From Escherichia coli (GTDB taxonomy: Bacteria > Pseudomonadota > Gammaproteobacteria > Enterobacterales > Enterobacteriaceae), in the NCBI RefSeq assembly GCF_011045215.1, contig NZ_CP049201.1: DNA of 64,000 nucleotides; one strand, written 5' to 3'. The notes under the pieces are model-generated. The model was not told the origin of the DNA, ran no database searches, and was given only the letters and a program-made list of their open reading frames with translations. Both the position numbers and the translations under genes were made by a program. Below are positions 57,243 to 58,790 of this stretch, piece after piece (within the stretch, counting starts at the first letter, position 1; each line of letters starts with the position of its first letter).

Positions 57243-58790
57243 CTAACATTTAGAATTGTTTAGCATTTCGTTTTTTACAGCAGTTTCAGCAAGCCAGACC
57301 ATAAAATCAATCGCACTCATCGGTTTTGCATAAAGATACCCCTGAATAAATCCAACATCCTTACCAAGAATATATCGAAGCTGCTGTTGGGTACTGACAC
57401 CTTCGGCGATAACATCCAAACCAAGTTTCTGGCATAGTGAGATAATCGTATCCAGAATAGGTACATTGATACCGCTGGTGTCAATCGTATCAACAAAGGT
57501 ACGGTCAATCTTTAAATAATTAGCTGGCAACTGTTGTAGATAAGCAAGTGAACAATAACCAGTACCGAAATCGTCTATTGCTATTAATACACCTTTTTCG
57601 CGCAAAATGGTGAGTTTCTCAGCCACTAGCTCTGGCTGGGTAATCAAGATGCGTTCCGTAACTTCCAACATAAGCTGAATAGTACCGATAGCTGCCATCA
57701 GTGCTTCTACATCCGAAATAAAGTCGTCATGAATCAAATGCTGAGGTGAAATATTAACGCTGATGTAAAAACTTTTGGGCAGTTGCCACTGCTTTACATC
57801 TTGGGCAATAAGTTGAAACAGATGACGTGAGAGCGGAACGATCATACCCTCACTTTCTGCCGCAGTGATGAAAATATCAGGTGTAATAAAGTTTCCTTCA
57901 GGTTGAGGCCAGCGCATTAAAGCCTCAACGCCACCACAACATTTGTGATTGACATTCAATACTGGTTGGTAATGAACAATAAATTGATCGTTTTTCATTC
58001 CTTTTGTTATTTCTCGCGCTAAAGAAAATCTTATCCGGTACCATCGCCGATAAAGCATGATTGTCAGAAAAGATAAACAGATGGATAACGGGATAAAAAA
58101 AAGTAAATTCTGCATCCATCGTGATGTTAACGTTGTGATCGGCGTTGCAACGGCTAGAGAGATTTGCTGATTCGGCAAAGAGTAGTGCTGAGTCATAAAT
58201 ATTCTGGCACCTTCTTTAGGTTGGCTTACAAGTAAATCACCAGTACCAAATCGCAGAGTGAATTTTGCTGATCTTTCTGTAGCCAAGACGTCCATCAGTT
58301 CTTGGATGTACCTTGAGTCAACAATGACAAATGCAGTTTTATTGCCTGTTATCTTTTCTGCGTAGATCACGACTGGTCTTTCGGGACCGCCTGACATACG
58401 AATAAAAGAAGAGACCCATTTCTCAGATAATGGTGTGGGGATTGTTTTGCCTTCAGGCAAAGGAAAAAGCAGTTTCTTCGCACCCGTGACAAAAGAGCAA
58501 GTAATATAACCATTTTCCAACAGTCCAATATCACGAATATAGGGAGTGAAGGCTCGAGTGTGGTTGAGTTCCGCCAGCATACTAGGGCAAGTGACACTGT
58601 CAAGTTGCTTTGCTTTTGAAGTTACGCGCCATGAAGCAACAGACAAATCTTCGCCATAACGAAGCAGGGTATTGGCACTAAAATTAATATCCTGTTTTAG
58701 TTGCATAACACTGGCAAGCAGCGCCAAGAGAGTCATAGCAACCAACGGAATGAATATGGAACCAAGTACAAAAGACCGCTTTACTTTCAT
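57243..58790 (-). CDS. CSS-motif-domain EAL c-di-GMP phosphodiesterase (PdeB/PdeC/PdeG-type architecture)
   Basis: 515-aa ORF: N-terminal TM, periplasmic domain with Cys pair, second TM, then EAL domain with YQP, EALMRW, DDFGTGY and EGVS motifs. Confidence 0.8.
   Translation of the reverse strand: MKVKRSFVLGSIFIPLVAMTLLALLASVMQLKQDINFSANTLLRYGEDLSVASWRVTSKAKQLDSVTCPSMLAELNHTRAFTPYIRDIGLLENGYITCSFVTGAKKLLFPLPEGKTIPTPLSEKWVSSFIRMSGGPERPVVIYAEKITGNKTAFVIVDSRYIQELMDVLATERSAKFTLRFGTGDLLVSQPKEGARIFMTQHYSLPNQQISLAVATPITTLTSRWMQNLLFFIPLSICLSFLTIMLYRRWYRIRFSLAREITKGMKNDQFIVHYQPVLNVNHKCCGGVEALMRWPQPEGNFITPDIFITAAESEGMIVPLSRHLFQLIAQDVKQWQLPKSFYISVNISPQHLIHDDFISDVEALMAAIGTIQLMLEVTERILITQPELVAEKLTILREKGVLIAIDDFGTGYCSLAYLQQLPANYLKIDRTFVDTIDTSGINVPILDTIISLCQKLGLDVIAEGVSTQQQLRYILGKDVGFIQGYLYAKPMSAIDFMVWLAETAVKNEMLNNSKC

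What the first reader, a model, noticed from the sequence alone, without database searches (positions are those of the whole stretch)
57243..58790. Accessory CSS-EAL c-di-GMP phosphodiesterase with a non-canonical EGVS motif
The domain architecture matches the redox-controlled CSS-domain phosphodiesterases, but the gene sits in accessory DNA between IS scars and an adhesin gene rather than at any K-12 paralog position I recognise. The usual EGVE motif reads EGVS, which may alter catalysis or indicate a degenerate or regulatory EAL domain. The EAL, DDFGTG, catalytic Lys and Asn motifs are present.
Basis: partly seen in the sequence, partly recalled or inferred. Interest (0 to 1): 0.45.

Follow-up and report, generated by a model that had tools for sequence, protein, structure and literature searches.

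The report
Horizontally acquired CSS-EAL c-di-GMP phosphodiesterase
This is an intact, rare, horizontally acquired membrane enzyme gene that most likely degrades the bacterial signal c-di-GMP, and its "odd" EGVS motif is normal for its subfamily and lies at a position where mutation did not affect activity in a related enzyme, so the finding is ordinary.

Summary
Window 57243-58790 (-) encodes a 515-aa protein with TM1, a periplasmic CSS domain, TM2 and an EAL domain. The motif reads E463-G-V-S466, and the gene lies in an aspV (tRNA-Asp) island between IS debris and a 1403-aa autotransporter.

The suggestion that EGVS marks altered or degenerate catalysis is not supported.
- The metal-binding, catalytically essential residue is the first Glu (RocR E352, PA3825 Glu217, TBD1265 E703). 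It is present.
- S466 matches the second Glu (RocR E355, TBD1265 E706). A secondary source reports that mutating it has no effect on activity.
- All 11 reference catalytic or substrate-binding residues and both CSS cysteines are conserved.
- EGV(S/T) is fixed in a whole enterobacterial clade. That clade includes Salmonella STM0343 (59% identity; its deletion raises c-di-GMP) and E. coli PdeT/VmpA (40%).
- dN/dS is 0.15-0.22.

The gene is only 22-27% identical to K-12 PdeB/C/D/G/N and was found in 1 of 5426 complete E. coli genomes. Its nearest relatives (90-93% nt) are chromosomal in Kluyvera, also behind the autotransporter, and in Citrobacter sedlakii.

Verdict: a new member of a known kind, of low interest.

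The parts
57243..58790 (-). CSS-EAL c-di-GMP phosphodiesterase gene (515 aa), identical to WP_163425214.1
   Evidence: ORF. Pfam CSS-motif plus EAL. 100% identical to the gene in E. coli PapRG-06-5. AF2 model has mean pLDDT 90, and its EAL domain superposes on active EAL PDE structures at TM 0.86-0.90.
58695..58778 (-). TM1 (aa 5-32), preceded by a positively charged N-terminus (MKVKR)
   Evidence: Kyte-Doolittle window of 19 peaks at 2.5. AF2 predicts a long helix over aa 5-65.
58116..58694 (-). Periplasmic CSS sensor domain (aa 33-225) with C68 and C98; the eponymous motif reads C98-S-F here
   Evidence: Pfam PF12792. C68 and C98 are invariant in 54 sequences, including K-12 PdeB/C/D/G/N. 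CSF occurs in 12 of 126 sequences.
58047..58115 (-). TM2 (aa 226-248), followed by YRRWYRIR on the cytoplasmic side
   Evidence: Hydropathy. AF2 helix over aa 218-254.
57321..58016 (-). Cytoplasmic EAL domain (aa 259-490) with a complete catalytic residue set
   Evidence: Pfam PF00563, E=1e-60. E289, R293, N346, E376, E379, D406, D407, K427, D429, E463 and Q483 match RocR E175, R179, N233, E265, E268, D295, D296, K316, D318, E352 and Q372.
57393..57404 (-). E463-G-V-S466, the 'EGVS' motif. E463 ends strand beta7 and S466 lies in the beta7-alpha7 loop.
   Evidence: Translation. AF2 secondary structure gives a strand at 459-463, a loop at 464-467 and a helix at 468-476. PA3825 Glu217, the first E, is the M2/phosphate ligand. 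The second E is reported dispensable in TBD1265.
58791..59344 (-). Spacer between the autotransporter and the PDE gene, AT-rich, with a presumed own promoter. About 330 bp next to the start codon are conserved with the C. sedlakii locus. 58896-59324 is absent from the Kluyvera homolog.
   Evidence: blastn of the window against L018 and L020. One promoter-like hit at 59272-59243, not above shuffle expectation. Dispersed-repeat fragments.
59345..63556 (-). 1403-aa autotransporter (putative adhesin) directly upstream on the same strand. It travels with the PDE gene.
   Evidence: Pfam Autotransporter beta-domain plus AC_1. The autotransporter-PDE adjacency is conserved at about 92% nt identity in Kluyvera.
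54789..56836 (.). IS debris downstream of the PDE gene: an IS3 fragment, an IS110-family transposase (55207-56376, -) and a transposase fragment (about 56597-56836)
   Evidence: ORF list. RefSeq annotation of the identical region, mapped by coordinates. Homology with the Citrobacter locus ends at 56912.
47726..47802 (+). tRNA-Asp (aspV), the integration site and boundary of the genomic island that carries the gene
   Evidence: ARAGORN. dnaQ and rnhA are annotated beside it in PapRG-06-5.

Best explanation
The gene encodes a catalytically competent inner-membrane c-di-GMP phosphodiesterase of the CSS-EAL type. It belongs to the STM0343/PdeT-like clade, in which the motif EGV(S/T) replaces EGVE.

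Topology (shown by sequence and model): a cytoplasmic N-terminus, TM1, a periplasmic CSS domain carrying C68 and C98, TM2, and a cytoplasmic EAL TIM-barrel.

Mechanism (inferred from PdeC/PdeB of E. coli K-12):
- A DsbA/DsbB-made C68-C98 disulfide keeps activity low.
- The reduced form allows TM2-driven dimerisation and two-metal hydrolysis of c-di-GMP to pGpG.
- E463 acts as the M2 ligand or general base.
- The reduced form is also open to DegP/DegQ processing.

S466 sits in the beta7-alpha7 loop at a position where mutation did not affect catalysis in TBD1265.

Origin: the gene reached this E. coli lineage by horizontal transfer, together with the upstream autotransporter, as part of an adhesin and regulator module. 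It now lies in an IS-riddled aspV island, and the closest source lineage found is Kluyvera.

Expected physiological effect (inferred from STM0343 and VmpA): lower c-di-GMP, hence more motility and less curli or cellulose matrix, possibly coordinated with expression of the neighbouring adhesin.
For: - Domains and topology.
- All 11 RocR reference residues are conserved, and they are invariant in 124-126 of 126 homologs.
- The first E of the motif equals PA3825 Glu217, the M2/phosphate ligand.
- TBD1265 E703A is dead but E706A is unaffected, as reported in PMC12943098.
- S or T at position 466 occurs in all 41 sequences of the query's clade.
- Clade member STM0343 was identified by mapping the published primers: a 2322-bp amplicon against the 2320 bp reported. 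It carries AEGVST. Its deletion raises c-di-GMP by about 30%, lowers motility and raises biofilm. Its invasion defect is rescued by the PDE STM3611 but not by the K179A mutant.
- PdeT/VmpA carries AEGVST.
- dN/dS is 0.15-0.22 over the whole gene and 0.10-0.15 in the EAL domain.
- The AF2 EAL domain matches active PDE structures at rmsd about 2 A.
- The redox mechanism comes from PMC5897775.
- Evidence for horizontal transfer: the gene is in 1 of 5426 complete E. coli genomes; GC is 36-42%; and a 92%-identical autotransporter-PDE module lies beside proBA in Kluyvera, whose core genes are about 78% identical to those of E. coli.
Against: - No biochemical data exist for this protein or any close ortholog. 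The STM0343 authors themselves say that point mutants are still needed.
- I could not read the primary VmpA paper or the primary TBD1265 paper, so the E706A result is second-hand.
- The redox model is transferred from PdeC, which is only 22-23% identical overall.
- Expression in this host is unknown. No convincing promoter or Shine-Dalgarno sequence was found.
- The gene is separated from the wHTH gene pairs that flank it in other genera.
- The low GC content suggests possible H-NS silencing (inference).
Confidence: 0.78

Rival explanations
1. Degenerate or regulatory EAL domain: the E-to-S change disables or strongly attenuates hydrolysis, and the protein acts as a c-di-GMP sensor or trigger protein rather than an enzyme.
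For: The EGVE motif is highly conserved across EAL domains in general. Glu occupies this position in 83 of 126 aligned CSS-EAL proteins and in all five K-12 paralogs.
Against: - The substituted residue is not in the catalytic or substrate-binding residue sets used in the literature.
- The TBD1265 E706A mutant is reported fully active.
- Every true catalytic residue and loop 6 (DDFGTGYCSL) is intact.
- S/T is clade-wide and under purifying selection.
- STM0343, which has the same motif, lowers c-di-GMP in vivo.
Confidence: 0.06
2. Intact but functionally idle passenger: the enzyme would work, but in this E. coli island it is a silent hitch-hiker. It may be silenced as foreign low-GC DNA, it is cut off from its native regulators, and it may be on its way to decay like its truncated paralog.
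For: - The island is heavily rearranged by IS3, IS110 and IS630 elements.
- A second CSS-EAL copy in the same island is already truncated by IS3.
- The wHTH gene pairs that bracket the gene in Klebsiella, Salmonella and Citrobacter are inverted and separated from it here.
- GC is 36-42%.
- The promoter scan is not above background.
- The gene is extremely rare in E. coli.
Against: - The ORF is intact and identical in at least three independent assemblies or read sets.
- About 330 bp of native upstream DNA is retained.
- Purifying selection is seen across lineages, although this reflects history in the donor genera, not in E. coli.
Confidence: 0.3
3. Functional subclass: EGV(S/T) tunes rather than abolishes activity in this clade, for example through altered metal affinity at M2/M3 or a changed beta7-alpha7 loop that affects dimer-dependent activation. 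This would give the clade distinct kinetics or regulation.
For: - The substitution is fixed as a small hydroxyl residue (S 29, T 11, C 1) across a whole clade rather than drifting freely.
- The residue lies three positions after the M2 ligand, in the loop that PA3825 work places next to the beta5-alpha5 (loop 6) region.
Against: - No effect is reported for E706A in TBD1265.
- No co-varying partner was found. The Cys in loop 6 occurs equally with E and with S/T.
- Fixation may simply be a neutral shared-derived trait of the clade.
Confidence: 0.12

Closest known systems
Salmonella enterica STM0343 (CSS-EAL, 'predicted PDE')
   Same: - 59% identity over the full length.
- Same TM1-CSS-TM2-EAL architecture, same AEGVST and CSF motifs.
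- The Salmonella locus holds wHTH/162-aa gene pairs, Ail/Lom and DUF4156 genes, and homologs of these lie in the E. coli island.
   Different: - STM0343 is widespread in Salmonella: its 90% cluster has 5831 members. It sits between two wHTH gene pairs beside the stb-like chaperone-usher operon.
- Here the gene is rare, sits behind an autotransporter in an aspV island, and the pairs are inverted.
- 41% of residues differ.
E. coli PdeT (VmpA) of EHEC O157:H7
   Same: Accessory CSS-EAL PDE absent from K-12. Same EGVST motif, all catalytic residues and both Cys present. Same larger clade.
   Different: Only 40% identical. PdeT lies downstream of dgcT next to pgaABCD and occurs in 414 of 5426 genomes. 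It is not an ortholog.
E. coli K-12 PdeC (and PdeB, PdeD, PdeG, PdeN)
   Same: Same domain architecture, conserved Cys pair and full EAL catalytic set. These proteins are the source of the redox and proteolysis model.
   Different: 22-27% identity. They have canonical EG(V/I)ET and sit at core chromosomal positions. NCBIfam equivalog PRK10551 is not reached: 291.8 against 461.
Kluyvera (georgiana/genomosp. 3) and Citrobacter sedlakii chromosomal homologs
   Same: 90-93% nt and 89-92% aa identity. In Kluyvera the same autotransporter lies immediately upstream.
   Different: These are chromosomal, beside proBA-phoE-crl in Kluyvera or an ecp-like operon in C. sedlakii, and not in an IS-rich tRNA island. 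The Kluyvera spacer lacks 430 bp that are present here.

Membership tests
CSS-EAL c-di-GMP phosphodiesterases (PdeC type) | N-terminal CSS-motif domain (PF12792) above the Pfam gathering score | tested here: met
   76.7 bits against 23, aa 32-228
CSS-EAL c-di-GMP phosphodiesterases (PdeC type) | C-terminal EAL domain (PF00563) | tested here: met
   205.5 bits against 31.3, aa 259-490. Fold match to solved EAL PDEs at TM 0.86-0.90.
CSS-EAL c-di-GMP phosphodiesterases (PdeC type) | Two transmembrane segments flanking the CSS domain | tested here: met
   Hydrophobic segments at aa 5-32 and 226-248, with basic residues on the cytoplasmic sides. AF2 helices.
CSS-EAL c-di-GMP phosphodiesterases (PdeC type) | Two conserved periplasmic cysteines (PdeC C75/C106) | tested here: met
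   C68 and C98 are invariant in alignments that include all five K-12 paralogs. The motif reads CSF, not CSS.
CSS-EAL c-di-GMP phosphodiesterases (PdeC type) | DsbA/DsbB-dependent disulfide lowers activity; DegP/DegQ process the reduced form | not testable with these tools
   Known for PdeC and PdeB only (PMC5897775)
Catalytically active (class I) EAL domains | RocR E175, R179, N233, E265, E268, D295, D296, K316, D318, E352 and Q372 all retained | tested here: met
   E289, R293, N346, E376, E379, D406, D407, K427, D429, E463 and Q483
Catalytically active (class I) EAL domains | Canonical EGVE with both glutamates | tested here: not met
   The motif reads EGVS. The second Glu is reported dispensable: TBD1265 E706A.
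Catalytically active (class I) EAL domains | Measured c-di-GMP hydrolysis | not testable with these tools
   Only genetic evidence exists, for the relatives STM0343 and VmpA
STM0343-like EGV(S/T) clade | Best full-length similarity to STM0343-type proteins, plus shared AEGVS(T/S) and CSF motifs | tested here: met
   58-66% identity to the Salmonella, Klebsiella and Citrobacter proteins. STM0343 identity confirmed by primer mapping.
STM0343-like EGV(S/T) clade | Conserved neighbourhood: gene bracketed by wHTH plus ~165-aa gene pairs, then Ail/Lom and DUF4156, beside a chaperone-usher operon | tested here: inconclusive
   All of these genes exist in the E. coli island, but they are inverted and separated from the PDE gene by the autotransporter
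K-12 core PDE equivalog (NCBIfam PRK10551) | Score above the equivalog cutoff | tested here: not met
   291.8 against 461. 22-27% identity to PdeB/C/D/G/N.
PdeT (VmpA) | Orthology: high identity and a position downstream of dgcT next to pgaABCD | tested here: not met
   40% identity and a different locus
Degenerate EAL receptors or regulators (YdiV, LapD, FimX type) | Loss of metal-binding or catalytic residues | tested here: not met
   None is lost. These families score only weakly.

The most novel reading that the evidence does not exclude
The most novel reading not excluded has two parts. First, the autotransporter and the EGV(S/T)-type CSS-EAL gene may form a functional two-gene 'adhesin plus local c-di-GMP sink' cassette that moves between enterobacterial genera, from Kluyvera to the E. 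coli aspV island. Second, the clade-fixed Ser/Thr may give these PDEs distinct metal dependence or activation kinetics compared with canonical EGVE enzymes.
Probability: 0.12. Interest if true: 0.35.

Novelty: new member of a known kind. Interest (0 to 1): 0.15.

Why it matters
The practical value is mostly corrective.
- EGVS or EGVT should not be read as a sign of EAL degeneracy. Only the first Glu of ExxE counts, and a whole enterobacterial clade that includes STM0343 and PdeT/VmpA carries Ser/Thr at the second position.
- For E. coli population biology, this adds one more example of accessory c-di-GMP genes arriving with adhesin loci on tRNA islands. The likely donor here is Kluyvera.
- It does not open a new question. 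Horizontally transferred CSS-EAL genes in E. coli are already catalogued in reviews (PMC10333796).

Tried and rejected
1. Primary sources not held. I tried to read Rao 2008 on RocR and Branchu 2012 on VmpA. I relied instead on offset-consistent residue mapping, the PA3825 structure paper and a secondary citation of Tchigvintsev 2010.
2. Covariation rejected. I tested whether S466 co-varies with the loop-6 Cys in DDFGTGYCSL. Cys413 accompanies Glu in 76 sequences and S/T in 40.
3. Two scans of species-representative genomes were unhelpful. An exact 31-mer gave 0 hits. A degenerate back-translation of PDIFITAAE returned only S. diarizonae, K. oxytoca, Pantoea septica and chance hits. This did not identify the donor. 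The absence of S. enterica and K. pneumoniae representatives is unexplained; the gene may be missing from those representative genomes. The donor genus was instead obtained from exact-protein look-ups of flanking core genes.
4. A first regex count of the motif mis-hit the AE(A/S)EGMIV motif in Pantoea proteins. I replaced it with a column read from a MAFFT alignment.
5. The promoter and terminator scan of the flanks found nothing above shuffle expectation.
6. Apparent high dN/dS resolved. Amino-acid and nucleotide identity are similar (91% and 93%), which could suggest relaxed selection. Nei-Gojobori analysis gave omega 0.15-0.22, because the AT-rich codon usage leaves few synonymous sites.

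Full report
**Observation.** Window 57243-58790 (minus strand) is a 515-codon ORF starting with ATG. Pfam finds a CSS-motif domain (aa 32-228, 76.7 bits) and an EAL domain (aa 259-490, 205.5 bits, E=1e-60). Hydropathy gives two membrane segments, aa 5-32 and 226-248, with basic residues on the predicted cytoplasmic sides. An AlphaFold2 model built on a 54-sequence alignment has mean pLDDT 90. Its EAL domain superposes on solved, active EAL phosphodiesterases (BifA, PA3825, YahA/PdeL, TBD1265, CC3396) at TM 0.86-0.90 and rmsd about 2 A. Codons 57393-57404 translate to E463-G-V-S466.

**Genomic context.**
- The sequence is identical to WP_163425214.1 of E. coli PapRG-06-5, isolated from baboon stool in Gambia.
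- The window itself comes from a very close relative rather than that strain. It is 99.94% identical and lacks 3.76 kb that PapRG-06-5 carries.
- Positions 1 to about 47.7 kb are core E. coli: rrnH, metNIQ, dnaE, bamA, dnaQ and rnhA.
- tRNA-Asp (aspV) at 47726-47802 marks the start of a genomic island.
- The island holds CP4-type genes including a CbtA/YeeU toxin-antitoxin pair, then an IS3 fragment, IS110 and another transposase fragment.
- Next come the PDE gene and a 1403-aa autotransporter on the same strand.
- Beyond the window end the island continues with two wHTH/~165-aa gene pairs, Ail/Lom, DUF4156, an EcpR-like LuxR regulator, a chaperone-usher operon, more IS elements, a second IS3-truncated CSS-EAL gene, and an integrase next to a T6SS cluster.
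- GC over the PDE gene is 36-42%.
- "Accessory DNA between IS scars and an adhesin gene" is therefore accurate.

**Is EGVS meaningful?** Four lines of evidence say it is not.

1. *Residue mapping.* The reference catalytic and substrate-binding set in RocR numbering is E175, N233, E265, E268, D295, K316 and E352, plus Q161, R179, D296 and D318 (PMC2952852). Q372 is usually added to this set. With the offsets given by the PDB hit table, these map to E289, R293, N346, E376, E379, D406, D407, K427, D429, E463 and Q483 in the query, and the residue type is identical in every case. So RocR E352 is the first Glu of the motif, and S466 corresponds to RocR E355.

2. *Structural role.* The PA3825 structure paper names Glu217 as the residue that contacts the M2 metal and the phosphate from the beta7-alpha7 loop. 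This is the first Glu of the motif and aligns with E463. The paper never mentions the second Glu.

3. *Mutagenesis.* PMC12943098 cites Tchigvintsev et al. 2010. It states that in TBD1265 the E703A mutant (first Glu) loses activity, whereas E706A (second Glu) has no effect. It also states that Ala or Ser at the RocR-E355 position should not impair activity. I could not read the primary paper.

4. *Evolutionary pattern.* In a 126-sequence alignment (the query, the 120 best database hits and the five K-12 paralogs), the true catalytic positions are invariant in 124-126 sequences. Position 466 is E in 83 sequences, S in 29, T in 11 and C in 1. Every sequence at least 37% identical to the query has S, T or C. 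The substitution is therefore a conserved clade character, not a lesion in this gene.

**What the clade contains.**
- The E. coli protein P0013 (40% identical, AEGVST) lies immediately downstream of dgcT and pgaA. That is the published position of vmpA/pdeT. Its gene is annotated pdeT in one RefSeq genome and occurs in 414 of 5426 complete genomes, including O157:H7.
- The Salmonella protein P0006 (59% identical, AEGVST) is STM0343. The deletion and verification primers from PMC11737180 map to its flanks and predict a 2322-bp product, against the 2320 bp reported. S. Typhimurium members of its cluster also carry AEGVST.
- Deleting STM0343 raises c-di-GMP by 29.85%, lowers motility and raises biofilm.
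- The invasion defect of the STM0343 mutant is rescued by the heterologous PDE STM3611 but not by its K179A mutant.
- This is genetic evidence, not biochemical, and the authors say so.
- Between the E. coli, Kluyvera and Citrobacter alleles, dN/dS is 0.15-0.22 over the whole gene and 0.10-0.15 in the EAL domain. This is consistent with a functional protein.

**Relationship to known E. coli PDEs.**
- Identity to K-12 PdeC, PdeB, PdeD, PdeG and PdeN is 22-27%, and all five carry EG(V/I)ET.
- The NCBIfam equivalog model PRK10551 scores 291.8 against a cutoff of 461.
- The gene is found in 1 of 5426 complete E. coli genomes by megablast. blastn adds only a 239-bp fragment in one other genome.
- Its 90% protein cluster has just 13 members.

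**Origin.**
- In Klebsiella pneumoniae, Salmonella and Citrobacter werkmanii, the 59-66% orthologs sit in a conserved locus. The order is a stb-like chaperone-usher operon, a divergent wHTH/166-aa pair, the CSS-EAL gene, a second wHTH/162-aa pair, Ail/Lom and DUF4156.
- The nearest relatives of the query are 93% nt identical in a scaffold whose PepD is an exact match to Kluyvera georgiana/genomosp. 3. The proBA-phoE-crl-frsA genes of that scaffold are only about 78% identical to those of E. coli.
- A 90% nt identical copy lies in a contig whose usher exactly matches Citrobacter sedlakii.
- In Kluyvera the same autotransporter lies directly upstream, and the two genes together are about 92% identical to the window.
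- The E. coli island therefore most likely acquired an autotransporter-PDE module, plus the regulator, Ail and DUF4156 genes, from a Kluyvera-like donor. IS activity then rearranged it.
- About 330 bp upstream and 330 bp downstream of the PDE gene are conserved with the Citrobacter locus. This suggests the gene kept its own control region.
- The window also carries about 430 bp in the autotransporter-PDE spacer that Kluyvera lacks. These contain pieces of a dispersed E. coli repeat.

**Mechanism.**
- Shown here: architecture, topology, the conserved Cys pair and a complete catalytic set.
- Inferred from PdeC and PdeB (PMC5897775): DsbA/DsbB-dependent disulfide formation in the periplasmic domain lowers activity. 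The thiol form dimerises through TM2, is highly active, and is processed by DegP/DegQ.
- Inferred from STM0343 and VmpA: the net effect is lower c-di-GMP, more motility and less matrix.
- Speculative: functional coupling to the adjacent autotransporter.
- Unknown: expression in this host. The low GC content, the lack of a clear promoter or Shine-Dalgarno sequence and the separation from the native regulator pairs leave open that it is a silent passenger.

**Verdict.** EGVS is the normal state of the STM0343/PdeT-like clade and lies at a position reported to be dispensable. The gene is a rare, horizontally acquired new member of a known kind. RefSeq already annotates it as an EAL domain-containing protein, and horizontally transferred CSS-EAL genes in E. 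coli are already noted in reviews. Interest is low.

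Noticed in passing
L014 23984-25033 (NZ_CP048605.1 2095983-2097032), outside the window: A second, diverged CSS-EAL gene (WP_250846160.1, 349 aa, 56-61% identical to the query, closer to the Citrobacter type) lies about 22 kb further along the same aspV island. An IS3 element truncates it after ELTERSLIVQPALV, so it lacks DDFGTG and everything downstream, and one CSS cysteine is changed to Gly.
   Followed up: partly
window 58896-59324: About 430 bp of the autotransporter-PDE spacer are absent from the Kluyvera homolog. Sub-segments (about 59116-59291) match an unannotated dispersed repeat at 81-95% identity in roughly 620 of 5426 E. coli genomes. This is probably the remnant of a small mobile element.
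   Followed up: partly
window 54047/54048: The window is not PapRG-06-5 itself. It is 99.94% identical across the island but lacks 3.76 kb (L001 24743-28501, covering GTPase, WYL-domain and YfjS-like genes). This matches the gene order of the read-set assembly SRR11014969.
   Followed up: partly
L001 12193-14821 (just beyond the window end at 64000) and L008-L013: Pairs of genes, a ~246-aa winged-HTH protein and a ~165-aa protein, have no Pfam hit but are conserved on both sides of the CSS-EAL gene in Klebsiella, Salmonella (STM0341/2 and STM0344/5 by position) and Citrobacter. They resemble MarT/FidL- or YqeI/YqeJ-type pairs found nearby and are uncharacterised candidate regulators of the locus.
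   Followed up: partly
L005 (K-12 1217328-1222248): In K-12 the CSS-EAL gene pdeG also lies next to an autotransporter pseudogene (ycgH). CSS-EAL and autotransporter adjacency therefore recurs in unrelated paralogs. This may be coincidence.
   Followed up: no
window 58494-58502 (aa 97-99) and homologs: The eponymous CSS motif reads C-S-F in the query and in the whole STM0343-like subclade (12 of 126 aligned sequences). Elsewhere it reads CSS.
   Followed up: partly
window 57246-57320 (aa 491-515): The C-terminal tail after the EAL domain shows dN/dS above 1 (1.2-1.6) between the E. coli, Kluyvera and Citrobacter alleles. This rests on only 6-9 substitutions, and the tail has low model confidence, so it is probably an unconstrained tail.
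   Followed up: no
window 59345-63556: The 1403-aa autotransporter (AC_1 and beta-barrel domains, GC about 57%) differs sharply in base composition from the adjacent 40%-GC PDE gene, although the two travel together between Kluyvera and E. coli. This suggests the pair was itself assembled from different sources.
   Followed up: no
Genome-contig scan: A complete back-translation of PDIFITAAE found S. diarizonae and K. oxytoca representatives but not S. enterica or K. pneumoniae, although proteins from those species contain the peptide. This is unexplained. The gene may be absent from those representative genomes.
   Followed up: no
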